Sequence record: NC_052654.1
Reading direction: 5' to 3' (one strand)
From: Escherichia phage vB_EcoM-Ro121c4YLVW
DNA: 64,000 nt
In this document: positions 1,592-15,600 of the stretch, one piece after another
Numbering within the stretch: the first letter of the stretch is position 1
How the letters are laid out: each line of letters begins with the position of its first letter
Made by a program: the position numbers and the translations under genes
Notes under the pieces: generated by a model
What the model was told of the DNA's origin: nothing
Seen by the model: only the letters and a program-made list of their open reading frames with translations
Databases searched by the model: none

Positions 1592-2197
1592 ATGCAACAT
1601 AGTGTAGTAGTCAACATGCCGAATAGTGGGGATAAATCTTTTGGTGTCCCTGCTAAAAAAGTGTGGAAAGCCCATTTTCATCTTACTTTATCTAACGTTA
1701 GTTCTGAAGAGTTGATGAAAGCAGCTAAGATTATTGGTGCCAAATGCACAACAATTGATTTACATCGGGATACAAAGTCTCAACGTGATCGTATGTTAAC
1801 AAAGTATCAAAGCGATCTCGACACTACTTTAATGTTGCAGTGTGTAGAAAAACTTGAGAATGCAGGTTTCAATGTTGTTCGTTACAAACTGGAACGAATG
1901 TTTAAACATGTTGCCTGTGTTCTTTTCATGGATCTAAGTAAAGAAAATTACGGAGAAGTTCACATTAAGACTTCAGCAAGTGATCCCGAAGTAGAAACAA
2001 ACTTCTTCCGTATTTCTTCTAATGCTGAAGAAATTGATTACCGATTTTATAATGCTCGCTTATATTCCGCAGAAGATAAGTTGCGTTTCAATGAAGCGTA
2101 TGATATGCTCTTGAACAGTGGGATACAGATAAAAGGCTACCACATAGAACAAGTGGTAGTGGACAGTAATCTTAACTTAGACGCATGGTGGGCTTAA
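1592..2197 (+). CDS. hypothetical protein; weak hint of a 2H-phosphoesterase-like H-x-T motif
   Basis: ORF with RBS GAGGAG. Contains HFHLTL (H-x-T-x) and a degenerate second motif VHIKT; assignment is speculative. Confidence 0.5.
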   Translation: MQHSVVVNMPNSGDKSFGVPAKKVWKAHFHLTLSNVSSEELMKAAKIIGAKCTTIDLHRDTKSQRDRMLTKYQSDLDTTLMLQCVEKLENAGFNVVRYKLERMFKHVACVLFMDLSKENYGEVHIKTSASDPEVETNFFRISSNAEEIDYRFYNARLYSAEDKLRFNEAYDMLLNSGIQIKGYHIEQVVVDSNLNLDAWWA

Positions 2198-2198
2198 T

Positions 2199-2855
2199 AT
2201 GACTATTAAACATATCTCTTTTGATGTATGGAACACACTGATCACAGCAAACTCCAATTACGCAGACATGCGAGCCTGGACTATCGCAAAATATGGAGAT
2301 ATTACGGAAGTGGAAGCAAGAGCAGCTTATAAAAAGATCAAAAAGGAACTGGATAATGCAGCACTTCAAGGCAAAGCCGAGTGTGCAGCATACGCTTGGG
2401 AAAGACTTGGTTCTGAACTTGGGATAACGCCTTGGAAGTCTGCAAAGCTTCGTTTCGAGTGTGAACAGTGGTTCCTTAAGTTTCCACCACACGTAGCCGT
2501 GGATCTGCCGATGTACTTGCTGTATCTTTCGGGGCGTTATGATTTGAGTATTAAGAGCAATACCAACTTCATATCAGGGGATATCCTGCGTCGTGCTTGT
2601 AAGTTTGATAGTTGGAATTGTTTTGAGTTCACCCATTTCTCGGATGAAGCTTTACTTTGTAAACCAGATCCGCGATTCTTTGCTCGCACGCTCACGTATT
2701 CTCCGGTCCCTCTGTTAGGGCACGAAGTATTGCACGTAGGCGATAGTGAAGAATATGATGGAAAATGTGTTGACTTAGGATTTAACTTCTGTCATATTAA
2801 GAACCCTAACGACTTACTAGAGAAACTTAAAAGAGGAGAAATTGTAAATGCGTAA
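2199..2855 (+). CDS. HAD-superfamily hydrolase (family IA-like phosphatase)
   Basis: Motif I-like FDVWNTL near the N-terminus, motif III LCKPDPRFF, motif IV HVGDSEEYD. Confidence 0.65.
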   Translation: MTIKHISFDVWNTLITANSNYADMRAWTIAKYGDITEVEARAAYKKIKKELDNAALQGKAECAAYAWERLGSELGITPWKSAKLRFECEQWFLKFPPHVAVDLPMYLLYLSGRYDLSIKSNTNFISGDILRRACKFDSWNCFEFTHFSDEALLCKPDPRFFARTLTYSPVPLLGHEVLHVGDSEEYDGKCVDLGFNFCHIKNPNDLLEKLKRGEIVNA

Positions 2856-3675
2856 TCAAACTCAAATTTTTGCAAATAAATTTGATGACCTGGAAACTGC
2901 TACTTTTGATATCAAAGATTATTCAAAATTGAAATTTGGTAGTAACCAAGCTGCGCGTCGTATGGGTAAAGAATTGGCACTTCAGTTTTTTGCTCAAGTG
3001 GCAATGAAACATATTGGGGAACAATTTGTTATCATCCCTTCTCCTTATAACCATGTGCATAATGCTGCAACAATGATGACAGATCATTTTATTAATTACT
3101 TTAATATGTTGCAAGCACAATATGATCAAGGTCGTTCAGCAGAACTGGATATTATTCATCGTAAAGTTAGCTATATCAACGATTATGGTTTCTTGGATAA
3201 AGCTAGTCGTAAGAAACTTATTGATGGGGATACATTCTACTGCAACAAAGAATTCTGGGGTGATAAGAAGCTTGTGTTCATTGATGATGTAAATATCACC
3301 GGAACTCATGAAGACAAACTGATTGAGATTCTTGATGAAAATCAAGTTAAAAATGATGTTTACTTCTTGTATTTTGCAAAATATGAAGGTAATCAAGCAG
3401 ATACTGAAGCTAAACTGAATTTTAACTACATCAATACACCAGAAGCGTTTGTTAAAATGATTAATGAAGAACGTGATGCACAGTGCCTTGTTCGTCCTAT
3501 TAAGTATCTTATGGGCCAAAATCACGAAGACTTCAAAATCATTCTTAGCCAATTGCCACACTACTATGTAGAGCAACTTTTCTTTGGATGTTTGGGAGAA
3601 GGTTACAACCGAATTTCAAAGTATGCTGAAAACTTTGAATTCTTGGATCGTTACACAAAACAACATATTCTGTAA
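2848..3675 (+). CDS. phosphoribosyltransferase (PRTase) domain protein
   Basis: PRPP-binding signature KKLVFIDDVNITGTHEDK (hydrophobic-DD-x-TGxT); start overlaps the HAD gene stop, suggesting co-translation. Confidence 0.65.
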   Translation: MRNQTQIFANKFDDLETATFDIKDYSKLKFGSNQAARRMGKELALQFFAQVAMKHIGEQFVIIPSPYNHVHNAATMMTDHFINYFNMLQAQYDQGRSAELDIIHRKVSYINDYGFLDKASRKKLIDGDTFYCNKEFWGDKKLVFIDDVNITGTHEDKLIEILDENQVKNDVYFLYFAKYEGNQADTEAKLNFNYINTPEAFVKMINEERDAQCLVRPIKYLMGQNHEDFKIILSQLPHYYVEQLFFGCLGEGYNRISKYAENFEFLDRYTKQHIL

Positions 3676-3688
3676 TAAGGAGCTAAAA

Positions 3689-4162
3689 ATGCTTAAAATG
3701 AAAACAGGTAATCTTATTGATGCCGCTAAAGCAGGAGAAGTAACTGTTATTGCTCATTGTTGCAATTGTATGTGTAATATGGGAGCAGGAATTGCTCCGC
3801 AAATTAAACGAGCATTCCCTTATGCATATGCGGCAGATTTAGACACAATGGCTGGTGATCAAAGTAAGTTAGGTTCTTTTAGTTTAGGGGTGCCAGACGA
3901 ACAATCAGACCCTTTGGTATATAATCTATACGGACAATACCGTTACGGATACAATGCTAAAGGTCGTCAGTTGGACTATGATGCACTTTACGATGCACTA
4001 ATAGCTATGGCTAATGATTTGCTTCTCCGTGACCAAAAATGTAAGATCGGCTTACCTATGATTGGCGCTGGATATGCTGGAGGTAATTGGGCTATCATCC
4101 AAGTGATGATTGAAGAAACTTTAGTAAAAACAGGTCACGATGTGACTATTTATAAACTTTAA
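3689..4162 (+). CDS. macro domain protein, TARG1/OARD1-like (ADP-ribose or O-acetyl-ADP-ribose hydrolase family)
   Basis: VIAHCCNCMCNMGAGIAPQIKRAFP and C-terminal IGLPMIGAGYAGGNWAIIQVMIEETL...VTIYKL parallel the TARG1 pattern (HCISEDCRMGAGIA...PRIGCGLDRLQWENV...ITVYTL) as recalled from memory. ATG 3689 with AAGGAG RBS; the track ORF starts earlier at 3584. Confidence 0.75.
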   Translation: MLKMKTGNLIDAAKAGEVTVIAHCCNCMCNMGAGIAPQIKRAFPYAYAADLDTMAGDQSKLGSFSLGVPDEQSDPLVYNLYGQYRYGYNAKGRQLDYDALYDALIAMANDLLLRDQKCKIGLPMIGAGYAGGNWAIIQVMIEETLVKTGHDVTIYKL

Positions 4163-4174
4163 GAGGAGATTAGT

Positions 4175-4396
4175 ATGGGTGTTTTTGCAGGTATTGTTGC
4201 AGTGGTAAGCTTTTTTGTTATTGCTTTTATGCTTAGTTTGATTCCAGCTTGGTTACTGTTGCTGGCTTACAACTATGTTGCTGAAGTTATGGGTCATGCA
4301 GATATCACTGTCCCAGTAACCTTCTGGACCGTGGTTTGTGTTTCGTTTATTCTGGCGGTATTACGAGGAATCTTTTCCTCTCATTCAACAAAATAA
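4175..4396 (+). CDS. small hydrophobic membrane protein (2-3 TM segments)
   Basis: RBS AGAGGAG; sequence dominated by hydrophobic helices; sits directly upstream of the TerC gene. Confidence 0.5.
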   Translation: MGVFAGIVAVVSFFVIAFMLSLIPAWLLLLAYNYVAEVMGHADITVPVTFWTVVCVSFILAVLRGIFSSHSTK

Positions 4397-4399
4397 GTG

Positions 4400-4428
4400 T
4401 TGACATAGTTCTTAAAAAGAGTAAGATA
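4400..4428 (+). promoter_or_regulatory. sigma70-like promoter candidate (TTGACA, 16-17 nt spacer, TAAGAT/AAGATA)
   Basis: TTGACA at 4400-4405 with a -10-like hexamer at the right spacing, in the intergenic gap upstream of the TerC gene. Confidence 0.45.
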
Positions 4429-4475
4429 TATCACATGAAGCGGGGAATAGTTCCCCGCAAAGAGAGGAGAAAAGA

Positions 4476-5447
4476 ATGCAACTCGGTTTCCCAATTATTG
4501 ATGTAGTTGTTTTAGTTGGTATTTTGGCATTGTCTATTGGTATCGATTTCTTTGGTCATAAAGAGAATAAAGAAATTGGAATTAAATCTGCTTTGCTTTG
4601 GTCTGTTTTTTGGATTGCTTTAGCTTTAGGATATTACGCATTCATTTGGGTAGAGCATGGTAAAGAGTTTGCCGCACTTTTCCTAAGTGGATATGTGTTG
4701 GAAAAGAGTCTTTCTGTAGATAACCTAATGGTGTTCATGGCAATTTTTGCAAGCTTTGGAATTAAGAGCACACATCTCCAACATAAGATTTTACTTTGGG
4801 GTATTGCAGGTGCCATTGTCTTCCGAGGTGTTTTTGTTGCAGCAGGGACAGCTTTGTTTAACCTGCATTGGTCGGTCCAAGTGTTGTTCGGTCTGATTGT
4901 AGCTTGGTCTGCCGTTGCTATTATCAAAGGTGGTGACGAAGAAGATATTGATTACTCTAAACATTGGGCTGTTCGTTTAGTAGGTAAAGTTCTGCCTGTG
5001 CACAACGCACTGGATGGTGAAAAGTTCATTACCATTAAGAATGGTATTAAATATGCAACTCCTGCTCTTCTTTGTGTGTTTGTTATTGAGCTTACAGATA
5101 TTGTGTTCTCTTTTGATTCAGTTCCGGCTGTTATTGGTGTGACACAAGAACCTCTGCTAGTTTATTCTGCAATGCTGATGGCTGTTCTTGGTTTACGTGC
5201 ACTTTTCTTTGTGTTAAGTGTAGCTGTGAAATATCTGGTTCACTTAGAGAAAGCTGTTGCTGTGGTTCTGGTGTTTGTTGGTGCTAAACTTATGTATCAC
5301 CCGTTCGGTGAAACACTTCATGCCAAGTGGTCATTCCTCCCGCATGATATTTCCCCTAACGTAAGTCTGATGATTGTTCTAGGCACATTAGCTCTTGGTG
5401 TTATTGCAAGCTTTATCTTCCCTGAAAAAGAAGAAGCTGCTGTTTAA
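4476..5447 (+). CDS. terC: TerC/Alx-family integral membrane protein
   Basis: Strong resemblance to TerC/Alx signatures: LSGYVLEKSLSVDNLMVF and IKNGIKYATPALLCVFVIELTDIVFSFDSVPAVIGVTQEP; multiple TM helices; RBS GAGAGGAG. Confidence 0.9.
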   Translation: MQLGFPIIDVVVLVGILALSIGIDFFGHKENKEIGIKSALLWSVFWIALALGYYAFIWVEHGKEFAALFLSGYVLEKSLSVDNLMVFMAIFASFGIKSTHLQHKILLWGIAGAIVFRGVFVAAGTALFNLHWSVQVLFGLIVAWSAVAIIKGGDEEDIDYSKHWAVRLVGKVLPVHNALDGEKFITIKNGIKYATPALLCVFVIELTDIVFSFDSVPAVIGVTQEPLLVYSAMLMAVLGLRALFFVLSVAVKYLVHLEKAVAVVLVFVGAKLMYHPFGETLHAKWSFLPHDISPNVSLMIVLGTLALGVIASFIFPEKEEAAV

Positions 5448-5453
5448 TAGATG

Positions 5454-5478
5454 AGCCTCCTTCGGGAGGCTATTTTAT
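5454..5478 (+). terminator. rho-independent terminator after the TerC gene
   Basis: Hairpin AGCCTCC-TTCG-GGAGGCT followed by ATTTTAT. Confidence 0.7.
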
Positions 5479-5489
5479 AGGAGAGACTT

Positions 5490-5840
5490 ATGAGTAATTT
5501 TGATGAAATTCAAAAACTTGTTTGGGATTTACCTGATGATGTTGATTACGTTTCAGATTATCTTTCAAAAGTTTACCCTGGGGTAAGCGTTATGATTGTG
5601 ACCAAAGATCCAATTAATTTGCCTCCTAATGTGGTAGCTTGTTGTGGGAGTGGTTCAGGGGAAGTGGAGCCTGTATCCCGTTGGGAATTAACTAAAGCTG
5701 TTTCAAAACGAAACGGTGAAGTTTTGAATATTGATATCGAGCAAATATGGACTTCTCCAGCAGCTAAATGGAATGATCCGAATGGTTGGGACTTGTTCTT
5801 CTGGGATAATGAAACTGATGATGAGGTATTTTTAAAATGA
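5490..5840 (+). CDS. hypothetical protein
   Basis: ORF with RBS AGGAGAG; no recognisable motif. Confidence 0.5.
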   Translation: MSNFDEIQKLVWDLPDDVDYVSDYLSKVYPGVSVMIVTKDPINLPPNVVACCGSGSGEVEPVSRWELTKAVSKRNGEVLNIDIEQIWTSPAAKWNDPNGWDLFFWDNETDDEVFLK

Positions 5841-6082
5841 AATACTTGTTGGTTGTGTTTGAAAATATTTGTTTTGCAATAGGGTTGTTTGTTGTAATTT
5901 TTGTATTGACAAGCGTAATCAACGGCAGTAAAGTGAGTTTATACCGAGATGGAGAGCAACTTTATTGCTTCTCTGGAGATTTCAAACACAGATGTATTAA
6001 TAGCCAAAACGAGGAAAGCAAATATGAAAAAACTAGCCCTGATTTTAATTGGTTGTATCTTTTTAACAGCTTGCGAGGATGA
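5837..6082 (+). CDS. hypothetical small membrane protein (doubtful)
   Basis: ATG overlaps the previous stop; N-terminal TM helix. It overlaps the better-supported lipoprotein gene by about 59 nt and contains a promoter-like site, so it may be spurious. Confidence 0.3.
   Translation: MKYLLVVFENICFAIGLFVVIFVLTSVINGSKVSLYRDGEQLYCFSGDFKHRCINSQNEESKYEKTSPDFNWLYLFNSLRG
5906..5934 (+). promoter_or_regulatory. possible sigma70-like promoter upstream of the lipoprotein gene
   Basis: TTGACA, 17 nt spacer, TAAAGT; located about 90 nt upstream of the ATG at 6024. Could be a chance match. Confidence 0.3.
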
Positions 6083-6461
6083 AACAAATCCTGCACAATA
6101 CCAACAACCTCCTCAACAATACGCTCAACAAGGATCTGACGGAGATACAACTATTATCAACAATGGTGGCGGTTCTAGTAGTAGCGGTGTTGGTGAGTTT
6201 GCTACAGGTATGTTGTTAGGGCATATGATGAGTGGCGGTAGTAATCGTAGCAGTGGGGATTATAACGATAACAGAACGATTATTAATAAGCATTATAATA
6301 CACCTAAACCGAAAACTAATTTTTATAGTAAGCCTAAACAAGAGATAAAAACTTATGAAAAGCCGAGACAAACTTTTAAAACAAATAGTAGCTATACAAC
6401 TCGTAAATCTTACAATAGCCCTTTAAGTAAAAAGAGTTCATCTCGTAGCAAGCGACGTTAA
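6024..6461 (+). CDS. predicted lipoprotein with low-complexity Gly/Ser-rich and basic C-terminal region
   Basis: MKKLALILIGCIFLTAC: basic N-terminus, hydrophobic core and lipobox L-T-A-C; RBS GAGGAAAG. The track ORF starts further upstream at 5949. Confidence 0.65.
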   Translation: MKKLALILIGCIFLTACEDETNPAQYQQPPQQYAQQGSDGDTTIINNGGGSSSSGVGEFATGMLLGHMMSGGSNRSSGDYNDNRTIINKHYNTPKPKTNFYSKPKQEIKTYEKPRQTFKTNSSYTTRKSYNSPLSKKSSSRSKRR

Positions 6462-6475
6462 TAAGGAGAAAAACA

Positions 6476-7069
6476 ATGACAATTTCTATTCGTACTTCCA
6501 TCGTAGGTGTTAAAAGGTTGCCTAATGCTTTGCAAATCACACGCGCTTTGAGGGATACATTCTCTGCTGTGGACGAGCATAAGATGCTTGATAATCTTTC
6601 AAATTGGCCCTATTTCCATTATTTTAAAAATGAAGATGACGAGTTTATAGACGCTGTTTCTTATGGTTATGATTTCGGTAAGGAGGTTTCTGCTGAAGAA
6701 TTTGTAGCTATGGTGTTCCCAAACGGTTTGCCTACTCGCAGTAAACGTAAAAAAGGACCAAAAAACAAGAAACGTGCTACTAATAAAGCTACCATTTTCT
6801 TTACTGATGGCACACAATATACGATTAAAGATTTTGAAGAGGTATCTTATACAGCAGGTGGGAATCTTTCTTTCTACACCATCAAAAAACAAAACTCTAC
6901 GTTCAGCCATGTTTCTAACATGATTGAAATGTTAGTAGAAGATATTGAAAGCGTAGCTGTGTTAGGTATGCATAAAAGCTTTTTAATTACAAATATTTCA
7001 GATTTCAGTGCACGTTTATCTGGTCCTGATTTTGAAACCACGACCACGCATTTCACTTTTAAGGTGTAA
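6476..7069 (+). CDS. hypothetical protein
   Basis: ORF with strong RBS TAAGGAGA; no recognisable motif. Confidence 0.55.
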   Translation: MTISIRTSIVGVKRLPNALQITRALRDTFSAVDEHKMLDNLSNWPYFHYFKNEDDEFIDAVSYGYDFGKEVSAEEFVAMVFPNGLPTRSKRKKGPKNKKRATNKATIFFTDGTQYTIKDFEEVSYTAGGNLSFYTIKKQNSTFSHVSNMIEMLVEDIESVAVLGMHKSFLITNISDFSARLSGPDFETTTTHFTFKV

Positions 7070-7072
7070 GTT

Positions 7073-7663
7073 ATGTATACCGAGAGAGACTTGCAACTCT
7101 TGTGGTGGGAAGTGATGCAGGAAATAAAAGAAGATTTTCCTGTTTACTACAACATGTTACGTGAAGCAGGATATAAAGCTTGTGTTAGAAACAAAGTGAA
7201 TAACTCTTTCGGTTGGTGCAACTACCGAGATAAAATTGTTGTTGTAAATTGGCACTTGCATAAGAACTCTACAAGAGATATGATCGTGGATACAATGAAG
7301 CACGAAATTGCTCATGCTATTGATGGTTGTATGGGTAAGTTTAGTAGACACGGTGCTCATTGGCAAAAACTGGCAGCAGAGTTAGGGGCTAATCCTAAAG
7401 CCACTTCCAAAGAGCCGTTGAACCACGAATATAAATATGTTCTTGTTCTGGTAGATAGGTTTGCGACAAGATGTGTTAGAGGTTATAATCGTAAACCTAA
7501 TCGCATGTACCCAGGTAAGCAACCTAATATGTGGTTGAAATCAGATAAAGAAGGGACCGAAGGAAAATTATGGTTGTATAAATGGGACGATTGGGTTAAA
7601 GTAGCTAAAGAGTACGGTGTTTCACCATATATAAGAGATGCAGAAGAGGAGAATGAAGAATGA
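7073..7663 (+). CDS. SprT-like zinc metallopeptidase domain protein
   Basis: HExxH motif in MIVDTMKHEIAHAIDGCMGKFSRHGAHW, as in SprT/Spartan-type proteins. Confidence 0.55.
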   Translation: MYTERDLQLLWWEVMQEIKEDFPVYYNMLREAGYKACVRNKVNNSFGWCNYRDKIVVVNWHLHKNSTRDMIVDTMKHEIAHAIDGCMGKFSRHGAHWQKLAAELGANPKATSKEPLNHEYKYVLVLVDRFATRCVRGYNRKPNRMYPGKQPNMWLKSDKEGTEGKLWLYKWDDWVKVAKEYGVSPYIRDAEEENEE

Positions 7664-8772
7664 CAAGTCCATTTTTAAAAGCAGCTACTGGCGGTCAGAA
7701 GAAGCCTGAAATGAGCGTATTTGCTGCAACAACAGATGCAAGTAAATCTGTATTCGCTCCAAGCGTGTTAGATGCCAGTCCTGTTTATGCACCAGCGGCA
7801 CCGCAAGAAGTTCCAGTTTTGCCTTCTATGACCCGACAAGAGATCGAAGAGATTGGGGCAGAGGCAGGAACAACCTTGCGTTCCTTGAATGCCGAGGTAT
7901 TAAAACATCAACGTAGTAATCAAGGCGATCAGATGAGTGAACGACTCACAGCTTTGATTAAACAGGCAAAACAACTTGATCCAAACTCTATTAAACAAAG
8001 CAAGGGTATTACTAAACTCATTAAAAAAGTTATGGGTATGAAAGAAGATCTGTTTGGGGAGTTTGATAATGTTAATAACCGTATTGAAGAGTTGGTAAAA
8101 AACCTTCAAATGGATATTCGCAAAGAAGAAGATTCCTTGGTATATCTTGAAAAGCTACATCAAGCTATTGGACAATATGCTGCAAGTTTGAACCGAGATA
8201 TGCAGCTTCTAACAGCAACCTATGAAAAAGAAGAACAAGCTTTGGCTGCTCTTCCAGAAGATGCAGTAGAACAGCGACAAGTGATCCGAGATACTTTGGA
8301 TCTTCTGGAGATTCGTATTGCAGATTTAAAAGCATTGCGCCTACTGTGTGTCCAAATGGGACCGCGTGTACAAGGTATGCAAAAAGTTTCTGCAAGCTTA
8401 ATGCGATCTGCGCGTAACATAGTAAATAATGTTATTCCTGCTTACTCTGCTAACTTCTCAATGTATATCGAGAGCTTACGTCAAATGAAAGCAGCAGAGA
8501 CGCAGAATAACGTTCTTGATGAATTTAACCTGGCAATTAAACTGGGTAGCGATCTTGCCACACAGAATCAGATAGAAGCAGCAGCACTGGCTAACCGTCA
8601 AGTGTTGGATATTGAAACTCTGCGTCACGATCAGGAAAACTTGGTTAAGATGTTGGAAGAAACTAACCGCATCAATACGGAAGCCCGTGCTGCTCGTGTT
8701 GATTATATTAATGAAGTTCAATCTTTGGAAGACGGGATGGTAGCTGCTGTGAAACGAGGGCTTGGTAAATGA
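7660..8772 (+). CDS. alpha-helical coiled-coil protein; possibly TelA-like (unverified)
   Basis: ATG overlaps the SprT stop (ATGA). 370 aa, Ala/Gln/Leu/Glu-rich helical sequence with a disordered N-terminus. TelA-like call rests only on size, composition and Ter-gene context. Confidence 0.6.
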   Translation: MTSPFLKAATGGQKKPEMSVFAATTDASKSVFAPSVLDASPVYAPAAPQEVPVLPSMTRQEIEEIGAEAGTTLRSLNAEVLKHQRSNQGDQMSERLTALIKQAKQLDPNSIKQSKGITKLIKKVMGMKEDLFGEFDNVNNRIEELVKNLQMDIRKEEDSLVYLEKLHQAIGQYAASLNRDMQLLTATYEKEEQALAALPEDAVEQRQVIRDTLDLLEIRIADLKALRLLCVQMGPRVQGMQKVSASLMRSARNIVNNVIPAYSANFSMYIESLRQMKAAETQNNVLDEFNLAIKLGSDLATQNQIEAAALANRQVLDIETLRHDQENLVKMLEETNRINTEARAARVDYINEVQSLEDGMVAAVKRGLGK

Positions 8773-8966
8773 GAATCCGTATCTATATAATTGATGAGGA
8801 CATTGGTGTCCGTTATGATGACGAAAAACGATTCGCACCAATGGGAGGCATATATCCCCCAAGTGTTCTAGCAGTTTGTCGTGATTGTTATATTTATGAA
8901 GGTTGTCGTAACTTCCGTAAATTCCAACTCCTTGCAGATATTGACTTCAATGAGGAGGAGGAGTAA
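8769..8966 (+). CDS. hypothetical small protein
   Basis: ATG overlaps the previous stop; acidic C-terminus (NEEEE). Confidence 0.35.
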   Translation: MRIRIYIIDEDIGVRYDDEKRFAPMGGIYPPSVLAVCRDCYIYEGCRNFRKFQLLADIDFNEEEE

Positions 8967-9139
8967 TGAAAATATTACGAGTGAATATTGAAACTGCTTG
9001 GTGTGGATGCAATGAGGTTGTGGATATCGAAATTGAAGATGATATGTCTCAAGAGGATATAGAAGATCTTGCCCACGAAACCTTTCAGGACTATTGTAAT
9101 TACGGGTTTCATATTTTAGAGGAGGAAGAAGATGTTTAA
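8966..9139 (+). CDS. hypothetical small acidic protein (57 aa, not in ORF track)
   Basis: ATG preceded by GAGGAGGAGGAG; hand translation MKILRVNIETAWCGCNEVVDIEIEDD...ILEEEEDV. Confidence 0.4.
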   Translation: MKILRVNIETAWCGCNEVVDIEIEDDMSQEDIEDLAHETFQDYCNYGFHILEEEEDV

Positions 9140-9335
9140 CTACGATAACGATCCTAATATTATCCAGTTAACCCGACAAGAACTGATCACAATCATTGAA
9201 GATGCTTTTATTGATGGTTGGAATACACAAGATAATGACTGGGGTGGACCCGAAGCTTTTCTGGAACATCATAAAGCTTATGGAGAATTTTGTGAAACCA
9301 CTGTAGCTCTTGATAATCTGAAGGAGGGTTTGTAA
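9132..9335 (+). CDS. hypothetical small protein
   Basis: ATG with GAGGAGG RBS. Confidence 0.45.
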   Translation: MFNYDNDPNIIQLTRQELITIIEDAFIDGWNTQDNDWGGPEAFLEHHKAYGEFCETTVALDNLKEGL

Positions 9336-9898
9336 TGGGTTGTTTTAGTTTTTTGTGCAAAGAATCGGGCAAAGCTGCCCTTTCTACTTCTTTCGACGGA
9401 TCACCTTGCTACCTCTTTCTTTTGAAAGACGGTGTTGTTATTGAAGAGATGTATGGCAACTATGATAGTTATGGTTGTGTTTTCTCTGGAAAAGAGGATG
9501 AAAATGGCGTTCGTGAACGGTTCGAATGGGCTATGGATTGGGGTAAGGTTTGTGATTTAATGCATTCCTCAAATCCAAGGGACGGTATTGCTATGGTGCT
9601 GGAAGAGTACTTTACAGGTGAAATCCCTACAGAACAATCTGACGGAGATCCTAATCAAGGTTGGGGTGATGGTGAAGAAGATCCAGATTGTTTTTTCAGC
9701 ACAGAAAAGAATAAGTTTAAACGTGTTGACAACCCTTATCACAAAGTGCATAATACTCTCATTGAAACAGAAGATGACAAGATGGAAATTGAAGAAGATG
9801 ATCCTCTTGTAACACTTCCTATAAGTGAGTTACAAAAGATCACTAAGGAAGCTTACGATTTGGGCTTCAAAATTGGTAGAGGAGGTATGCGTGTTTAG
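9335..9898 (+). CDS. hypothetical protein
   Basis: ATG with AAGGAGGG RBS; acidic, no recognisable motif. Confidence 0.55.
   Translation: MGCFSFLCKESGKAALSTSFDGSPCYLFLLKDGVVIEEMYGNYDSYGCVFSGKEDENGVRERFEWAMDWGKVCDLMHSSNPRDGIAMVLEEYFTGEIPTEQSDGDPNQGWGDGEEDPDCFFSTEKNKFKRVDNPYHKVHNTLIETEDDKMEIEEDDPLVTLPISELQKITKEAYDLGFKIGRGGMRV
9726..9754 (+). promoter_or_regulatory. sigma70-like promoter candidate (TTGACA, 17 nt, CATAAT)
   Basis: Located inside the 3' end of the preceding ORF, about 140 nt upstream of the small-protein/vWA gene pair. Confidence 0.4.
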
Positions 9899-10169
9899 AT
9901 TCAATATTCAAGAAGAAAAAAGTCAGGATTTACCTATTGCTTTCGAAGATCTTGACGTAGGGGCCACATTCATGTATTATGATGCCTATGAAGACGCAGG
10001 GTTGGATACCTACCGTAACTTGGTGTTCATTAAAAATTCCACAAACAGTGCGATTTGTATTAATGGATCACTAGCACAACGAGGCTATACTCATTGCATC
10101 CCACCAGATACAAATATGGTGGAAGTAGATTTAGAAGTTACCAATATTACACTTAAGAAGGAGAAATAA
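9891..10169 (+). CDS. small conserved protein, paralog A (pairs with 11191..11460)
   Basis: GTG start after GGAGG. Shares the pattern ...DLDVG(A/D)TF.Y...(F/Y)(E/D)(D/E)(A/N)GLD...LEV.LTVT.ITLKK with the ORF at 11191. Confidence 0.55.
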   Translation: MFRFNIQEEKSQDLPIAFEDLDVGATFMYYDAYEDAGLDTYRNLVFIKNSTNSAICINGSLAQRGYTHCIPPDTNMVEVDLEVTNITLKKEK

Positions 10170-10170
10170 T

Positions 10171-10965
10171 ATGTCCGAGAAAATCAGCCTGAAAAAACGT
10201 CAAGAAAACCTTGCTTTCTCTCTGAAAAAGAATAAGAACCTGAATGAAGGTAAGATTGTTCTTCGTGTAGCATGTGCTCTAGATATTTCTGGTAGTATGC
10301 ATGGTCTATATTCTAGTGGGGTAGTGAGTGATTTTGTAGGTAAACTGCTTCCTTTTGGTATGCTGTTCGACGATAATCAACAAATTGATATGTGGGCCTT
10401 CAATACGAGTTCCCAAGAGCTTACTCCAGCAACAGCAGACGTTTACGATGACTATGTTGGTAAATGTATGCGTAATGTTCGTATCGGAGGTGGAACAAAT
10501 TACGCCCCTGTAATGGCAGATATCTACGATGAGTATTTTGGCACTGTTACCAAATATATTACCACTAAACAAGTGGTACAAGAGGAGGCTCCAAAGAAAG
10601 GCTTCTTTAATCGTCTGCTTGGTAAAACTGAAACAGTGTCTGTAGAGCGTGAAAAAGTTGTAGCTGTATCTGAACCAGGTGCTGACGTTACCCCTGGTGT
10701 TGTATTCTTCCAGACGGATGGTGAGAATGGTGATCCTAGTGCTGTTCGTCGTCTTATTGAAGAGAATAAGAATAAACCTATTTATTGGTTCATGGTTGGC
10801 GTTGGTAATGAGAAGTTTGGCTTCCTGAAAGAACTGGCAAATGCTTATGATAATGTTGGTTTTATTGGCATTAAAGATTTAGACTTGACAGATTCAGAGC
10901 TTTATGACAAACTCTTATCTGAAGAGTTCGGAGAGTGGGTTGTTAAAGTAGGTGCTAAAAAATGA
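10171..10965 (+). CDS. vWA domain protein, TerF/TerY-like
   Basis: MIDAS motif DISGSM, then GGTNY and TDGENGD; N-terminus MSEKISLKK resembles the TerD-family N-terminal motif. Confidence 0.8.
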   Translation: MSEKISLKKRQENLAFSLKKNKNLNEGKIVLRVACALDISGSMHGLYSSGVVSDFVGKLLPFGMLFDDNQQIDMWAFNTSSQELTPATADVYDDYVGKCMRNVRIGGGTNYAPVMADIYDEYFGTVTKYITTKQVVQEEAPKKGFFNRLLGKTETVSVEREKVVAVSEPGADVTPGVVFFQTDGENGDPSAVRRLIEENKNKPIYWFMVGVGNEKFGFLKELANAYDNVGFIGIKDLDLTDSELYDKLLSEEFGEWVVKVGAKK

Positions 10966-11210
10966 TCGACGAGCTTGCCTCTCAAGTCGTAGAAAATTAT
11001 TGGCGCGAGAGAGAAGCTTTCATTATGCGCAGTCTCAAAGAGTATTTCATTGGGACTGTGCGAATGGAAGATATTGTAAGTAGAGTAGAGATTCATGTAT
11101 GGCCCGATTATGAAGAATGGGTTGACAAAGAAAATGAAAATGCTATAATTCTTCGTATATACAAACCGGAGATAACATTAGGAGGAAGAAGTGTTAAACT
11201 TCGAAATTGA
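10962..11210 (+). CDS. hypothetical small protein
   Basis: ATG overlaps the vWA stop; contains an internal promoter-like site. Confidence 0.4.
   Translation: MIDELASQVVENYWREREAFIMRSLKEYFIGTVRMEDIVSRVEIHVWPDYEEWVDKENENAIILRIYKPEITLGGRSVKLRN
11122..11149 (+). promoter_or_regulatory. sigma70-like promoter candidate (TTGACA, 16 nt, TATAAT)
   Basis: Consensus -35 and perfect -10 hexamer, upstream of the paralog B and TerD genes. Confidence 0.5.
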
Positions 11211-11460
11211 TGAGCAAAAAGTAAATAAACGATGCCTTACCATTAAAGATTTGGATGTAGGAGATACTTTCGTCTATGAAAATGCATTTGACGAAAATGG
11301 TTTAGACCTTAGTGAAATCATTGTTTATTTAAAAGTAGATGATGGGGAAAATGATTATTCTGCTGTAGAACTAAACCATCATGCACAATTAGTATCAATC
11401 CAAAACACATCTAAGCTTTTGGAAGTAGAATTGACTGTAACTGGTATTACACTTAAATAA
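11191..11460 (+). CDS. small conserved protein, paralog B (pairs with 9891..10169)
   Basis: GTG start after GGAGGAAG; sequence parallels paralog A. Confidence 0.55.
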   Translation: MLNFEIDEQKVNKRCLTIKDLDVGDTFVYENAFDENGLDLSEIIVYLKVDDGENDYSAVELNHHAQLVSIQNTSKLLEVELTVTGITLK

Positions 11461-11475
11461 TAGAGGAGACAAAAG

Positions 11476-12078
11476 ATGACTGATAAAATTTCCCTGAAAA
11501 AAGGCTCTAGCGAAAAAATTTCCCTGAAGAAAGTTGCTCCGGCTCTGAAAGAACTGCGCCTGGAATTCTCTTGGAAATCTGATTCTAAACTGGATCTGGA
11601 TGTAAGTGCACTGGTTTGTCGTCATAATGCCGCTGGCAATCCTGAAATGCTGTCCGCACGTCATCTGGTTTGCTATGCTAACAAGTTTGATCCTGAACGT
11701 TCTACCTTCGCTGGTGACGATGTTCGTGATGGGACTGGCAGCATGGAGCAGATTGATATTACTCTGGCTAAAATCTCTCCTGATGCACAAGAGATTGCCT
11801 TTGTTCTGACCATTGATGATGATACAGGTCTGAAACGTTTTGGTCATGCTTCTGAAGGTATGCTTAAAATCTTCGACTCCGAGCGTAATGTGGAAATTCT
11901 GGATTTTGACTTCCTGGCTCCTGAAGTAGCTGGCAACACAATCTGCCACGTGGCTTCCCTGGTTCGTGAAGATGGAGAATGGAAGCTGAAAGCATATGGT
12001 GTAGGTAAAGCTGGTCTGGATATTTGCGATGTGGTGATGGCCTTCGGTGGTAAAAAAGAATGGTATGAATGTCCATAA
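11476..12078 (+). CDS. terD: TerD-domain protein
   Basis: Matches recalled TerD signatures: N-terminal ISLKK repeats, DLDVSALVC, GDDVRDGTGSMEQIDITL, IAFVLTIDDD, DGEWKLKAYGVGKAGL. Codon usage is strongly E. coli-optimal (CTG, CGT, GGT). Confidence 0.9.
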   Translation: MTDKISLKKGSSEKISLKKVAPALKELRLEFSWKSDSKLDLDVSALVCRHNAAGNPEMLSARHLVCYANKFDPERSTFAGDDVRDGTGSMEQIDITLAKISPDAQEIAFVLTIDDDTGLKRFGHASEGMLKIFDSERNVEILDFDFLAPEVAGNTICHVASLVREDGEWKLKAYGVGKAGLDICDVVMAFGGKKEWYECP

Positions 12079-12096
12079 TAATTAACAAATGATTTT

Positions 12097-12116
12097 GAGG
12101 GGGAGAAATCCCCCTC
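12097..12116 (+). other. GC-rich stem-loop (GAGGGGGAGAAATCCCCCTC) without a clear U-tract
   Basis: Perfect inverted repeat between the TerD and endolysin genes. Confidence 0.5.
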
Positions 12117-12145
12117 TTGCAATAAAGCCTCTATCGTGTTATACT
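12117..12145 (+). promoter_or_regulatory. sigma70-like promoter candidate (TTGCAA, 17 nt, TATACT)
   Basis: Immediately downstream of the stem-loop and about 30 nt upstream of the endolysin RBS. Confidence 0.5.
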
Positions 12146-12177
12146 AGAAGTTCGTTAACTTAAAAAGGAGGCAAAAT

Positions 12178-12699
12178 TTGCTGATAAAAAACTTTGTAAC
12201 AGTTGCGTTACTATCCTTAACTGCTTTTACATTTACACCTGTTGTGGCGAAAGCCGAAGCTGCAAACGTAAAAACCGCTAAAGTAGTTCACAAATGTACA
12301 AAGCAATATAATGATAAAATTCTATTAGCTTGTGCAATTTACGCAGAAGGTCGCGGTCTGGGTAAAAAAGGAATGAATGCCGTTGGGAATGTGGTAATCA
12401 ACAGAAGAAATGATGCCTACTTCCCTAACACAGTCAAGGGAGTCTTGTTCCAGAAAGGGCAATTCTCATATGCGAAAACTTTTAACGTGACAGAGAAAGA
12501 TAAGTGGCAGGAAGCAAAAGCAATAGCGGAGCGTTTACTTTATTTAGAGAAACATTTTCCTGAATTGCGGTCTGTTTTAGATGTTACTAAAGGTGCTCTA
12601 TACTTCAAGAAACGGAATATAAGGACACACTGGGAGCGTGATATGCGTCTTGTTTATCGAGATAAAGTGCATGGTTTCTATCTACCAAAGGGGAGTTAA
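12178..12699 (+). CDS. cell-wall hydrolase (SleB/Hydrolase_2-like) with N-terminal signal peptide; candidate secreted endolysin
   Basis: TTG start after AAAGGAGG; signal peptide with AKA-EA cleavage-like site; CAIYAEGRGLG...GNVVINRR...FQKGQFSYAKTF resembles SleB-type hydrolases. Confidence 0.7.
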   Translation: MLIKNFVTVALLSLTAFTFTPVVAKAEAANVKTAKVVHKCTKQYNDKILLACAIYAEGRGLGKKGMNAVGNVVINRRNDAYFPNTVKGVLFQKGQFSYAKTFNVTEKDKWQEAKAIAERLLYLEKHFPELRSVLDVTKGALYFKKRNIRTHWERDMRLVYRDKVHGFYLPKGS

Positions 12700-12700
12700 A

Positions 12701-12985
12701 ATGCAAGAAGATAATACTGTTGTTGTAGCAAGTTACCTGGTTGTCGGTCTTACCGAAGAGGACGTATACTACACCCGTAAACATTTGGAAGCATACACTA
12801 CTTTGTTTATGGAAGATGAAAAAGATGTAGATAAATATAGCATTGATATGATCAACGACAGTATTTATCCTTGTATGGTTCTTAAAGTAGATGCTGTGCT
12901 GTGGGAGCGTTTTGCAAGGACTCATGATGCTGTAGAATGCTCCGCAGTAATGTCTCAAAACAACATTTTAGGGGAGATTCACTGA
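12701..12985 (+). CDS. hypothetical protein
   Basis: ATG at 12701 just after the endolysin stop; the track version starts at 12638. Confidence 0.45.
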   Translation: MQEDNTVVVASYLVVGLTEEDVYYTRKHLEAYTTLFMEDEKDVDKYSIDMINDSIYPCMVLKVDAVLWERFARTHDAVECSAVMSQNNILGEIH

Positions 12986-13215
12986 TGGGAGAAGTCATTG
13001 AAGTAAATTTTCGCACTAAACAAAAAGTGCAAAAATATGTTGTTATTAAAAACATTTGCGTTGTCTGCTTCAATACTGTAATATACGATTCACGACGCGG
13101 AGAAAACGAAAATGAACCTTACATTGAAATTTCTAAGAACAAAGGTCAATGTATTTGTAAGAACTGTGCAGTAGCTATTAAGGAGGTTGTAAATGAAAAC
13201 GCTTGGGACCAATGA
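12985..13215 (+). CDS. small zinc-ribbon-like protein
   Basis: CxxC...CxxC spacing (CVVCF...CICKNC); ATG overlaps the previous stop. Confidence 0.45.
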   Translation: MGEVIEVNFRTKQKVQKYVVIKNICVVCFNTVIYDSRRGENENEPYIEISKNKGQCICKNCAVAIKEVVNENAWDQ

Positions 13216-13384: not shown

Positions 13385-13400
13385 TATAACGGAGGGGAGA

Positions 13401-13964: not shown

Positions 13965-13972
13965 GAGAGAAA

Positions 13973-15593: not shown

Positions 15594-15600
15594 GTGAAGT

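What the first reader, a model, noticed from the sequence alone, without database searches (positions are those of the whole stretch)
2199..12078. Phage-encoded Ter-like (tellurite-resistance-type) gene cluster: TerC, TerD, vWA-TerF, TelA-like, PRTase, HAD
Within 10 kb of early-region DNA the phage encodes a confident TerC membrane protein (4476..5447), a confident TerD protein (11476..12078) and a vWA protein with a TerD-like N-terminus (10171..10965). Less securely, it also has a 370-aa coiled-coil protein that could be TelA-like (7660..8772) and an HAD phosphatase plus PRTase pair (2199..3675). From comparative genomics of bacterial ter loci (Aravind group, about 2012, as I recall), TerD and TerC are linked to vWA (TerY/TerF), TelA, PRTase and HAD genes, and the classical ter operon gives phage-inhibition and colicin-resistance phenotypes. 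A near-complete Ter-type toolkit on a virulent phage is unexpected and suggests host membrane or stress manipulation, superinfection exclusion or counter-defence. I am not aware of a functional description of such a phage module.
Basis: partly seen in the sequence, partly recalled or inferred. Interest (0 to 1): 0.85.

Follow-up and report, generated by a model that had tools for sequence, protein, structure and literature searches.

The report
Ter-type stress gene cluster on coliphage
A lytic E. coli phage of the phAPEC8 group really does carry a conserved set of bacterial "tellurite-resistance-type" (Ter) membrane and metal stress genes plus a small nucleotide-making enzyme pair, but such phage Ter modules have already been annotated and described, and what they do is still untested.

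Summary
Window 2199-12078 encodes TerC/Alx (4476-5447), TelA (7660-8772), vWA-TerF-like (10171-10965), TerD (11476-12078), PRTase_3 (2848-3675) and a HAD hydrolase (2199-2855). All are supported by profile searches, and the PRTase also by a structure model.

One detail is wrong: the vWA protein has no TerD domain, only a roughly 20-residue TerD-like motif at its N-terminus.

The window is a Phapecoctavirus (99% identical to GenBank records). The gene set is syntenic across both Stephanstirmvirinae genera (about 130 genomes) and under purifying selection (dN/dS 0.08-0.15 for the Ter genes). It is absent from 5,426 E. coli genomes and 72,556 plasmids.

The same TelA/vWA/TerC/TerD set occurs as a compact cassette in unrelated Caulobacter and Pseudomonas phages. 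The HAD-PRTase pair is fused to Ter genes in some phage lineages and stands alone in others.

It is not new. GenBank already names these genes, and Iyer et al. 2021, Warring et al. 2022 and the phiKp34 paper describe phage Ter clusters and propose superinfection exclusion.

It is not a terZABCDEF operon: there is no TerB, only one TerD (with a truncated Ca2+ loop), and the HAD has DxW in place of DxD. Function remains inferred. I rate interest as modest.

The parts
2199..2855 (+). HAD-IA-type hydrolase. Motif I is FDVWNT, with an invariant Trp at the Asp+2 position. Motif II is S120-N121, motif III is K155, and motif IV is G181-D182...D187.
   Evidence: Pfam Hydrolase is sub-threshold. PHROG 14393 'hydrolase'. 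Weak NCBIfam HAD-IA hits. Orthologue profile against PDB 2OM6 gives 9.4e-20. The gene sits immediately upstream of PRTase_3 in 5 of 6 other phage lineages.
2848..3675 (+). ComF-like phosphoribosyltransferase (PRTase_3) with PRPP loop IDDVNITGTH (residues 145-154) and a C-terminal helical domain.
4400..4458 (+). Sigma-70-like promoter (TTGACA-16-TAAGAT, 4400-4427) and a 5'UTR hairpin (4440-4458) upstream of TerC. No riboswitch.
   Evidence: Promoter scan. Sequence read. The phAPEC8 record annotates a 'host dependent promoter' at the same place. Rfam finds nothing at E<=1.
4476..5447 (+). TerC/Alx-subfamily integral membrane protein, a putative divalent-cation exporter.
   Evidence: PF03741, 7.5e-40. 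TIGR03718 scores 318.9 bits, above its cutoff. Nine hydrophobic segments and both conserved motifs. 71% identical in Justusliebigvirus, dN/dS 0.135.
5454..5471 (+). Intrinsic-terminator-like hairpin directly after TerC.
   Evidence: AGCCTCC-TTCG-GGAGGCT followed by a T-rich tail.
7660..8772 (+). TelA-family soluble helical protein with a low-complexity N-terminal tail of 55 residues.
   Evidence: PF05816, 3.2e-33. PHROG 5890 'tellurite resistance'. No predicted TM segment. 78.5% identical in Justusliebigvirus, dN/dS 0.084. 22-28% identical to TelA of Caulobacter, Pseudomonas and jumbo phages.
9891..10169 (+). Small protein (phrog_11278) directly upstream of the vWA gene. It is a paralogue of 11191-11460. 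Its membership of the module is uncertain.
   Evidence: Paralogy at E 2e-12. PHROG. 64% identical orthologue in the same position in Justusliebigvirus. No Pfam hit.
10171..10965 (+). vWA-TerF-like protein with an intact MIDAS site, an insertion of about 45 residues, and a short TerD-like N-terminal motif.
   Evidence: PF10138, 1.6e-37 in two stretches. MIDAS residues. 66.5% identical in Justusliebigvirus, dN/dS 0.147. Found in 218 phage records.
11122..11149 (+). Perfect sigma-70 consensus promoter-like site (TTGACA-16-TATAAT with an extended TG) upstream of 11191-11460 and TerD.
   Evidence: It is the only 12/12 match in 17 kb. Overall promoter counts are not above the shuffled expectation.
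11191..11460 (+). Second copy of the phrog_11278 small protein, directly upstream of TerD. Restricted to Phapecoctavirus.
   Evidence: only two homologue clusters, both close.
11476..12078 (+). The single TerD-domain protein. The DLDVSA motif is kept. The Ca2+-binding loop is shortened and has lost acidic residues (GDDVRDGTGSME).
   Evidence: PF02342, 3.2e-28. PDB 2KXT 1.5e-15 and 3IBZ 2.9e-14, with alignment. The loop is 5 residues shorter than in CcrSC and phiPsa347 TerD. 81% identical in Justusliebigvirus, dN/dS 0.123.

Best explanation
The region is a phage-borne version of the bacterial Ter stress-response hub. It sits in the nucleotide-metabolism and replication arm of a lytic phAPEC8-like (Phapecoctavirus) E. 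coli myophage.

Shown:
- A TerC/Alx-type inner-membrane cation transporter, three soluble partners (TelA, a MIDAS-bearing vWA-TerF-like protein, one TerD) and a HAD-PRTase_3 enzyme pair are all present.
- They are conserved in order across the subfamily and are under purifying selection.

Inferred mechanism:
- After infection, host RNA polymerase transcribes the genes from sigma-70-type promoters. TerC has its own promoter and terminator and lacks the Mn2+ riboswitch that controls host alx-type genes.
- TerC changes divalent-cation flux (Mn2+, Zn2+ or Ca2+) across the inner membrane.
- TelA, vWA and TerD form a metal-dependent assembly close to the membrane.
- The PRTase joins a base-like nucleophile to PRPP, and the HAD enzyme processes the product into a nucleoside-like ligand for that assembly.

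Net effect, following Iyer et al. 2021: the infected cell's envelope and ion state is reset so that rival phages, colicins or envelope stress cannot abort the infection before lysis.
For: - Family identities.
- Phage identity and conservation: 61 records cover at least 80% of the region at 95-99% identity. Justusliebigvirus has the same gene order.
- Selection: dN/dS is 0.08-0.15 for the Ter genes and PRTase, comparable to the endolysin at 0.14. Window versus ESCO13 differences are almost all synonymous.
- A module, not coincidence: TelA-vWA-TerC-TerD is contiguous in Caulobacter CcrSC and Otagovirus phiPsa347. TerC...TerD...vWA-HAD-PRTase_3 is contiguous in metagenomic phage contigs L011 and L016. 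vWA-TerD-TerD-x-TelA lies 3.1 kb upstream of PRTase_3 in L014.
- Transcription signals. No riboswitch.
- Function of bacterial relatives: the ter operon gives phage inhibition and colicin resistance (Whelan 1995/1997, as cited in PMC9796965). K. pneumoniae terC contributes to Zn(II), Mn(II) and phage resistance (PMC12054061). Alx is a Mn2+ exporter (PMC10197570, title).
- The superinfection-exclusion hypothesis for phage Ter systems is in PMC7824862.
Against: - There are no expression, interaction or phenotype data for any phage Ter gene.
- In this phage the four core genes are spread over 7.6 kb with about 14 unrelated ORFs between them and probably several transcription units. Co-regulation is therefore assumed, not shown.
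- The HAD-PRTase pair also occurs without Ter genes: in Rhizobium phages next to DHFR and a PurZ-like gene, and in T4-like contigs next to an RNA ligase and DUF2828.
- TerC occurs alone in Proteus and Pectobacterium phages.
- The TerD Ca2+ loop is degenerate.
- The HAD lacks the Asp+2 general acid of phosphatases, so 'phosphatase' is not secure.
- P1's ter-like tciABC genes are dispensable in the lab (PMC10695390).
Confidence: 0.5

Rival explanations
1. The region is a loose neighbourhood of independent accessory genes rather than one system. TerC acts alone as a metal exporter. HAD-PRTase is a nucleotide-salvage or modification pair. Macro, the AbiEi-like protein and SprT are separate counter-defence or repair genes. 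TelA, vWA and TerD have their own roles.
For: - About 14 unrelated ORFs are interspersed among the core genes. TerC has its own promoter and terminator.
- HAD-PRTase occurs without Ter genes in three lineages.
- TerC occurs alone in other phages.
- The 187-aa protein, as conserved as the Ter genes here, sits in replication modules elsewhere.
- The Macro domain is DarG/TARG1-class and is shared with rV5 and FelixO1 phages that lack Ter genes.
Against: - The same four Ter families recur together, contiguously, in at least five unrelated phage lineages.
- HAD-PRTase_3 is directly fused to that block in two of them.
- The order is conserved between two genera despite saturated synonymous divergence.
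Confidence: 0.2
2. The module is an auxiliary metal-homeostasis function for the phage's own benefit, not for conflict. TerC exports or redistributes Mn2+ or Zn2+, with TerD and vWA as metal buffers, to keep phage enzymes correctly metalated during infection. An alternative purpose is to metalate or time the secreted endolysin encoded next to TerD.
For: - The TerC is of the Alx subfamily. Alx is a Mn2+ exporter (PMC10197570). Bacterial terC confers Zn/Mn resistance (PMC12054061).
- nrdDG lies immediately upstream.
- The endolysin has an N-terminal hydrophobic signal segment and directly follows TerD in both genera. A Hydrolase_2 endolysin follows TelA in L014.
Against: - This does not explain TelA or the PRTase-HAD pair.
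- The TerD metal loop is degenerate.
- Adjacency to the endolysin is not seen in the Caulobacter or Pseudomonas phages.
Confidence: 0.2
3. The module is a counter-defence device. It blocks host abortive-infection effectors that kill by membrane depolarisation or ion leakage, or it makes a nucleoside-like molecule that interferes with nucleotide-based immune signalling.
For: - The region also holds a DarG-like Macro domain and an AbiEi-like protein, suggesting an anti-defence neighbourhood.
Against: - There is no direct evidence, and none of the core proteins matches a PADLOC model.
- The same cassette exists in bacteria as a host-side system (Iyer 2021).
Confidence: 0.1
4. The genes confer genuine tellurite or xenobiotic resistance on the host cell.
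For: The family names, and the remark in Iyer 2021 that Ter genes might help during pseudolysogeny.
Against: - The phage is lytic, and there is no copy in 5,426 complete E. coli genomes or 72,556 plasmids.
- There is no TerB and no set of TerZ/A/E paralogues.
- Tellurite is rare in nature.
Confidence: 0.03

Closest known systems
Phage-borne Ter cassettes described by Iyer, Anantharaman, Krishnan, Burroughs and Aravind 2021 (jumbo phages such as Acinetobacter vB_AbaM_ME3 and the Caulobacter Dolichocephalovirinae), plus Pseudomonas PhiPsa374 (Otagovirus) and Klebsiella phiKp34
   Same: The same four families (TelA, vWA-TerF-like, TerC, TerD) on a lytic phage. A PRTase and a HAD are present, as in ME3. 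The same proposed role in competition with other phages.
   Different: Here the genes are not contiguous: they span 7.6 kb, TerC comes first, and about 14 ORFs are interspersed. The genome is about 150 kb, so not a jumbo phage. The TerD has a shortened Ca2+ loop compared with the Caulobacter and Pseudomonas phage TerDs. Protein identity to those phages is only 21-34%.
Bacterial terZABCDEF operon (IncHI2 R478, E. coli O157 tellurite island, K. pneumoniae virulence plasmids)
   Same: Shares the TerC and TerD families, and the vWA type found at the C-terminus of TerF. The operon's phenotypes include phage inhibition and colicin resistance.
   Different: No TerB. One TerD instead of five or six paralogues. 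The vWA is not fused to a TerD domain. TelA is present, whereas it belongs to a separate telAB/klaABC locus in bacteria. There is only remote similarity to K. pneumoniae TerD (60.7 bits). There is no nucleotide-level match in E. coli genomes or plasmids.
Bacillus subtilis yceCDEFGH-type TerD-TerC-TelA operons (recalled from my own knowledge, not tested here)
   Same: Co-linear TerD, TerC and TelA genes, without TerB, forming an envelope and metal stress operon.
   Different: Three TerD paralogues and no PRTase-HAD pair. It is host-encoded and stress-regulated.
E. coli Alx (TerC family Mn2+ exporter controlled by a riboswitch and a pH-responsive leader)
   Same: The phage TerC scores above the curated cutoff of the TerC/Alx subfamily model.
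   Different: There is no riboswitch or long leader upstream, only a sigma-70-like promoter and a short hairpin. It is accompanied by TelA, vWA and TerD.
ComF/ComFC competence protein PRTase domain (H. pylori, PDB 7P0H)
   Different: 9% sequence identity. No N-terminal zinc-finger region was tested. There is an extra C-terminal helical domain, and it is always paired with a HAD gene.

Membership tests
TerC family (Pfam PF03741; NCBIfam TIGR03718 TerC/Alx) | Profile score above the curated cutoffs | tested here: met
   137 bits against a gathering score of 27.8. 318.9 bits against a cutoff of 246.4.
TerC family (Pfam PF03741; NCBIfam TIGR03718 TerC/Alx) | Polytopic membrane protein with the paired acidic/polar motifs (E..LS.DN and D..F..DS.P) | tested here: met
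   Nine hydrophobic segments. SLSVDN at 78-83 and SFDSVP at 212-217.
TerC family (Pfam PF03741; NCBIfam TIGR03718 TerC/Alx) | Metal (Mn2+/Zn2+) export activity | not testable with these tools
   Needs transport or metal-sensitivity assays.
TerD domain (PF02342) | Profile score above the gathering score, and a full-length match to solved TerD structures | tested here: met
   98.9 bits against 25.3. 2KXT 1.5e-15 and 3IBZ 2.9e-14.
TerD domain (PF02342) | Intact dual Ca2+-binding motif GDN(R/L)TG(E/A)GDGDDE (motif recalled from the 2KXT literature) | tested here: not met
   The window has GDDVRDGTGSME. In the alignment to 2KXT three acidic positions are replaced by T, S and M. The loop is 5 residues shorter than in other phage TerDs. 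Metal binding itself was not tested.
vWA-TerF-like (PF10138) | Profile score above the gathering score, and MIDAS residues | tested here: met
   130.1 bits against 29.4. D38-x-S40-x-S42, T109, D183.
TerF architecture (TerD domain fused to a C-terminal vWA) | N-terminal TerD domain | tested here: not met
   No PF02342 hit on 10171-10965. phmmer against the phage TerD gives E of about 1. The vWA domain starts at about residue 28, which leaves room only for a motif.
TelA (PF05816) | Profile score above the gathering score over nearly the whole model | tested here: met
   115.7 bits against 30, covering model positions 13-327 of 332.
PRTase_3, ComF-like (PF15610) | Profile score, PRTase fold and PRPP-binding loop | tested here: met
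   [not shown]
PRTase_3, ComF-like (PF15610) | Phosphoribosyl transfer activity and identity of the acceptor | not testable with these tools
   Needs an enzymatic assay with PRPP.
HAD superfamily hydrolase | HAD fold with motifs I-IV | tested here: met
   Single-sequence Pfam is below the gathering score, but the orthologue profile hits 2OM6 at 9.4e-20 and 38 other HAD structures. D9, T13, S120, K155, D182 and D187 are invariant.
HAD phosphatase (DxD type) | Asp at nucleophile+2 (general acid/base) | tested here: not met
   Invariant Trp (FDVWNT) in all 7 orthologues, and also in 2OM6.
Classical terZABCDEF tellurite-resistance operon | TerB plus several TerD paralogues (TerZ/A/D/E/F) around TerC | tested here: not met
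   No TerB hit, and only one TerD, among all + strand ORFs from 1592 to 15593. No hidden paralogues by all-against-all phmmer.
Classical terZABCDEF tellurite-resistance operon | Tellurite resistance, phage inhibition and colicin resistance phenotypes | not testable with these tools
   Needs wet-lab assays.
Phage Ter cassette (sensu Iyer et al. 2021) | TelA, vWA-TerF-like, TerC and TerD encoded together on a phage genome and conserved among relatives | tested here: met
   The same set is found in CcrSC and phiPsa347.
Phage Ter cassette (sensu Iyer et al. 2021) | Linkage to PRTase and HAD 'signal biosynthesis' genes | tested here: inconclusive
   The pair lies 0.8 kb from TerC here and in Justusliebigvirus. 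PRTase_3 is linked to Ter genes in L011 and L016, where the HAD-PRTase_3 pair abuts them, and in L014, where it lies 3.1 kb away with no HAD hit on record. The pair is unlinked in L004, L012 and L015.

The most novel reading that the evidence does not exclude
The HAD(DxW)-PRTase_3 pair makes a previously unknown nucleoside-like small molecule. This molecule is sensed by the vWA/TerD/TelA assembly and gates the TerC channel, giving a virus-encoded second-messenger system that switches the infected cell's membrane and ion state to exclude rival phages or to disarm abortive-infection effectors.

Because these phages infect E. coli K-12, this would make the decades-old question of what Ter systems do directly testable.
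Probability: 0.15. Interest if true: 0.7.

Novelty: already known. Interest (0 to 1): 0.3.

Why it matters
The biochemical function of Ter systems has been unclear since the 1990s, in bacteria as well as in phages. Even the link between tellurite resistance, phage inhibition and colicin resistance is unexplained.

This cluster adds no new kind of system. It does show three useful things:
- A minimal hub of one TerC, one TerD, one vWA and one TelA, plus a PRTase-HAD pair, is a conserved core trait of a whole subfamily of easily grown, K-12-infecting lytic coliphages, and it is under purifying selection.
- The hub is not shared with host chromosomes or plasmids.
- The PRTase-HAD pair is modular.

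That makes these phages a practical genetic model for working out what Ter proteins do. If the module excludes competing phages, it also matters for designing phage cocktails, because Phapecoctavirus and Justusliebigvirus isolates are often proposed for therapy.

Tried and rejected
1. Hidden extra Ter components. Pfam at E<=1 on every unassigned ORF and an all-against-all phmmer found no TerB and no second TerD. The only paralogue pairs are 9891-10169/11191-11460 and the two glycosyltransferases.

2. The 187-aa protein (9335-9898) as a Ter partner. It is as conserved as the Ter genes (76% identity, dN/dS 0.155). However, its N-terminal domain belongs to a widespread phage family that sits beside DnaB, PolA and other replication genes in contigs with no Ter genes, so I rejected it. 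The AF2 model (pLDDT 84.8) has no fold match in PDB or BFVD.

3. A Mn2+ (yybP-ykoY) riboswitch upstream of the Alx-type TerC. There is no Rfam hit at E<=1.

4. Recent transfer from host ter operons or prophages. There is no megablast match in E. coli genomes or plasmids.

5. The 388-402-aa proteins between TerC and TerD in L011 and L016 as TelA. BLASTP is not significant, so this is left open.

6. 1592-2197 as a 2H phosphoesterase (it has an HLTL motif). Pfam, NCBIfam and PDB give no support. Instead there is a full-length hit to the PADLOC 'AbiEi' models.

7. PRTase against PDB by sequence or profile found only the PRPP loop. This was resolved by structure prediction.

8. The Anantharaman 2012 paper (PMC4104200) and the supplements of Iyer 2021 were not available.

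9. Loci fetched through protein-mode hits were not visible in the sandbox. I worked around this through DNA alignment.

Full report
**What the window is.** Megablast of 2199-12078 against 50,697 phage records found 101 matching records. Of these, 61 cover at least 80% of the region at 95-99% identity. The best is Escherichia phage MirsaeidiM_Esher1 at 99.2%, and phAPEC8 itself is 97.5% identical. The annotated relatives are classed as Caudoviricetes; Stephanstirmvirinae; Phapecoctavirus. In those records the region lies between the anaerobic ribonucleotide reductase genes nrdD/nrdG upstream and an endolysin, four glycosyltransferases and the primase/helicase gene downstream, all on one strand. 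A 4.4-kb piece of the cluster has no megablast match in 5,426 complete E. coli genomes or in 72,556 plasmids. The genes are thus phage genes, not recently borrowed host ter operons.

**Checking each assignment.**
- TerC (4476-5447) hits PF03741 at 7.5e-40. It scores 318.9 bits on the NCBIfam TerC/Alx subfamily model, whose cutoff is 246.4. It has nine hydrophobic segments and both signature motifs.
- TelA (7660-8772) hits PF05816 at 3.2e-33 over almost the entire model, so it is secure rather than tentative.
- The vWA protein (10171-10965) hits PF10138 vWA-TerF-like at 1.6e-37 and has complete MIDAS residues.
- TerD (11476-12078) hits PF02342 at 3.2e-28 and aligns end to end with the solved TerD of K. 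pneumoniae (2KXT, 1.5e-15).
- The HAD protein (2199-2855) is below Pfam's gathering score on its own. A profile of seven phage orthologues hits the HAD structure 2OM6 at 9.4e-20, and 38 further HAD structures.

- The vWA protein has no TerD domain. Pfam finds none, and phmmer against the phage's TerD gives E of about 1. Only the first roughly 20 residues (KISLKK...FSLKK) resemble the N-terminal hairpin of TerD.
- The TerD Ca2+ loop is degenerate. Klebsiella TerD has GDNRTGEGDGDDE, whereas this protein has GDDVRDGTGSME, with three acidic positions replaced. The loop is five residues shorter than in the TerDs of Caulobacter and Pseudomonas phages.
- The HAD enzyme and all six orthologues have an invariant Trp at the Asp+2 position (FDVWNT). 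Phosphatases of the superfamily have a second Asp there. The solved relative 2OM6 shares this feature. Calling it a phosphatase is therefore an assumption.
- No TerB, no further TerD paralogue and no other Ter-associated enzyme was found in any ORF between 1592 and 15593. The cluster is the TerC/TelA/vWA/TerD hub plus one PRTase-HAD pair. It is neither a near-complete toolkit nor a terZABCDEF operon.

**Synteny and selection.** In Justusliebigvirus alia (phi92-like), the other genus of the subfamily, the order is the same: nrdDG, HAD, PRTase, Macro, small TM protein, TerC, small TM protein, lipoprotein, TelA, 187-aa protein, 92-aa protein, vWA, TerD, endolysin, glycosyltransferases.

| Protein | Identity to alia | dN/dS |
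|---|---|---|
| TerD | 81% | 0.123 |
| TelA | 78.5% | 0.084 |
| TerC | 71% | 0.135 |
| vWA | 66.5% | 0.147 |
| PRTase | 65% | 0.093 |
| HAD | 49% | 0.28 |
| Endolysin (comparison) | 76% | 0.138 |

Synonymous sites are saturated. Against the close relative ESCO13, the differences are almost all synonymous: PRTase 5:0, TerD 7:0, vWA 3:0. By tblastn, TelA, vWA, TerC, PRTase and TerD occur in 221, 218, 175, 155 and 147 of the 50,697 phage records respectively. In each search roughly 60-70 records form the close (Phapecoctavirus-level) band and roughly 60-75 the intermediate (Justusliebigvirus-level) band, consistent with the whole subfamily carrying each gene. The refutation criterion 'scattered and non-syntenic in related phages' is not met.

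**Is it a module?**
- In Caulobacter phage CcrSC the genes TelA, vWA-TerF-like, DUF475/TerC and TerD are contiguous.
- In Pseudomonas phage phiPsa347 the order is TelA, one small ORF, vWA-TerF-like, TerC, TerD.
- Homologues of the PRTase (46-56% identical) from metagenomic phage contigs show TerC-x-TerD-x-vWA-HAD-PRTase_3 in L011 and L016. L014 has vWA-TerD-TerD-x-TelA-endolysin, with PRTase_3 starting 3.1 kb downstream of TelA.
- Recurrence of the same families in unrelated backbones argues for functional coupling.
- The HAD-PRTase pair also occurs without Ter genes. In Rhizobium phage RHph_TM30 it lies among DHFR, a cytidyltransferase and a PurZ-like gene. In two T4-like contigs it lies next to an RNA ligase and a DUF2828/DUF7788 protein. 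Its tie to the Ter hub is therefore frequent but not obligatory.
- In this phage the four core genes are spread over 7.6 kb with about 14 other ORFs between them. Several of those ORFs (the AbiEi-like 201-aa protein, the 116-aa protein, SprT, and the 65-, 57- and 82-aa proteins) are missing from Justusliebigvirus.

**Transcription signals.** TerC is preceded by TTGACA-16-TAAGAT (4400-4427), which the phAPEC8 record annotates independently as a host-dependent promoter. A hairpin lies at 4440-4458, and a strong terminator-like hairpin follows at 5454-5471. No Rfam family matches at E<=1, including the Mn2+ riboswitch typical of Alx-type genes. The only perfect 12/12 sigma-70 match in 17 kb lies at 11122-11149, upstream of the small ORF and TerD. 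Overall promoter counts do not exceed the shuffled expectation, so these are leads, not proof.

**Mechanism.**
- Shown: a TerC/Alx transporter, three soluble partners and an enzyme pair are present, conserved and under selection.
- Known from relatives: Alx exports Mn2+ (PMC10197570). K. pneumoniae terC contributes to Zn(II), Mn(II) and phage resistance (PMC12054061). The plasmid ter operon gives phage inhibition and colicin resistance (Whelan et al., cited in PMC9796965).
- Inferred: the phage expresses the hub from host-type promoters. TerC changes cation flux. TelA, vWA and TerD form a metal-dependent assembly under the membrane. PRTase and HAD make a nucleoside-like ligand. The infected cell then becomes refractory to rival phages, colicins or envelope stress until lysis. 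This is essentially the proposal of Iyer et al. 2021.
- I give about 0.95 to the identity of the parts and about 0.35-0.4 to this mechanism. Rivals are independent accessory genes, metal housekeeping for phage enzymes or lysis control, counter-defence, and true tellurite resistance.

**Comparison with what is known.**
- Iyer et al. [quoted passage not shown] They list the same functional classes (PRTase and HAD; TerB and TerD; TerC; TelA and TerF-vWA) and suggest use against superinfecting phages.
- Warring et al. 2022 list terC, terD, terF and telA in PhiPsa374 and note that ter genes are widespread in phages.
- The phiKp34 paper reports terC, terF-vWA, two terD genes and telA.
- P1's tciABC genes carry similar labels and are dispensable.
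- GenBank and RefSeq records of Phapecoctavirus and Justusliebigvirus already carry the names TerC, TelA/tellurite resistance, TerD/TerE, VWA, phosphoribosyltransferase and HAD.
- I found no paper that discusses the cluster in Stephanstirmvirinae as a system. I found no experimental test of a phage-encoded TerC/TelA/vWA/TerD module; the only phage ter-like genes with functional data that I saw are P1's tciABC.

**Verdict.** The open part is function. Its practical value is that it sits in coliphages that grow on K-12.

Noticed in passing
window 3689-4162 (+): The Macro domain protein directly after the PRTase is of the TARG1/DarG class: PDB 5E3B 5e-13, TARG1 2e-6, DarG macrodomain 5M31 2e-6, NCBIfam DarG 1.5e-8, PADLOC DarG 2.4e-10. 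It is a candidate reverser of DarT-type DNA ADP-ribosylation, that is, an anti-DarTG counter-defence gene. It is shared with rV5, FelixO1 and PVP-SE1 phages that lack Ter genes.
   Followed up: partly
window 1592-2197 (+): This 201-aa protein has no Pfam, NCBIfam or PDB match, but gives a full-length hit to two PADLOC 'AbiEi' models (4.7e-13). It is absent from Justusliebigvirus, where an ATPase gene sits instead. It may be an antitoxin mimic.
   Followed up: partly
[not shown]
   Followed up: yes
window 9891-10169 and 11191-11460 (+): Two paralogous small proteins of about 90 aa (phrog_11278, E 2e-12), one directly upstream of vWA and one directly upstream of TerD. Justusliebigvirus has only the first copy, and no homologues were found outside the subfamily.
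   Followed up: partly
window 4175-4396, 5837-6082, 6024-6461 (+): TerC is flanked by two small membrane proteins and a lipoprotein (MKKLALILIGCIFLTAC, lipobox LTAC) with a low-complexity S/K/N-rich tail. All three are conserved in Justusliebigvirus. Phage lipoproteins are classic superinfection-exclusion factors. Some GenBank records start the lipoprotein gene too far downstream.
   Followed up: no
window 7073-7663 (+): A SprT-like zinc metalloprotease (PF10263, 4e-9) whose stop overlaps the TelA start codon. It is absent from Justusliebigvirus.
   Followed up: no
window 12178-12699 (+): The SleB-type (Hydrolase_2) endolysin directly after TerD has an N-terminal hydrophobic signal or SAR-like segment. 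A Hydrolase_2 gene also follows TelA in the unrelated contig L014.
   Followed up: no
L012 8967-10562, L015 6152-7555, L016 9862-11268: In other phage contigs the HAD-PRTase_3 pair sits next to TROVE or DUF2828/DUF7788 proteins (the L016 TROVE protein also has a weak VWA_2 hit) and to RNA ligases. This hints that the pair may generally work with vWA-type proteins or in RNA repair settings.
   Followed up: no
window 2199-2855 versus L001 (ESCO13) 4775-5431: The HAD gene is mosaic between close relatives. The first 226 nt do not align and the rest is 78% identical, while the flanking genes are 98-100% identical. This suggests a local recombination exchange.
   Followed up: no
GenBank records MG065650, MG065689, MG065656, OP562383, OR584014: Records labelled Campylobacter phage (B15, A110a, C3), Acinetobacter phage ABPW7 and Pseudomonas phage PsgM04F are close matches to these coliphages. 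The region is about 98% identical at nucleotide level in B15 and ABPW7. PsgM04F TelA is 90% identical at protein level. A110a and C3 match at the level of Justusliebigvirus. The host labels look doubtful.
   Followed up: no
window 13401-16545 (+): Four consecutive glycosyltransferase genes. The last two are paralogues (E 1e-72), and 13973-14656 gives a weak hit to TET-associated glycosyltransferase (TAGT, 1.3e-3). Their target (DNA, LPS or protein) is unknown.
   Followed up: no
window 7660-7824 (TelA residues 1-55): TelA has a low-complexity N-terminal tail with repeated F/Y-A-A/P motifs (residues 21, 32, 43). A similar Ala/Pro-rich tail with YAP and FAP motifs is visible in the Caulobacter phage TelA region. 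It may be a docking motif.
   Followed up: no
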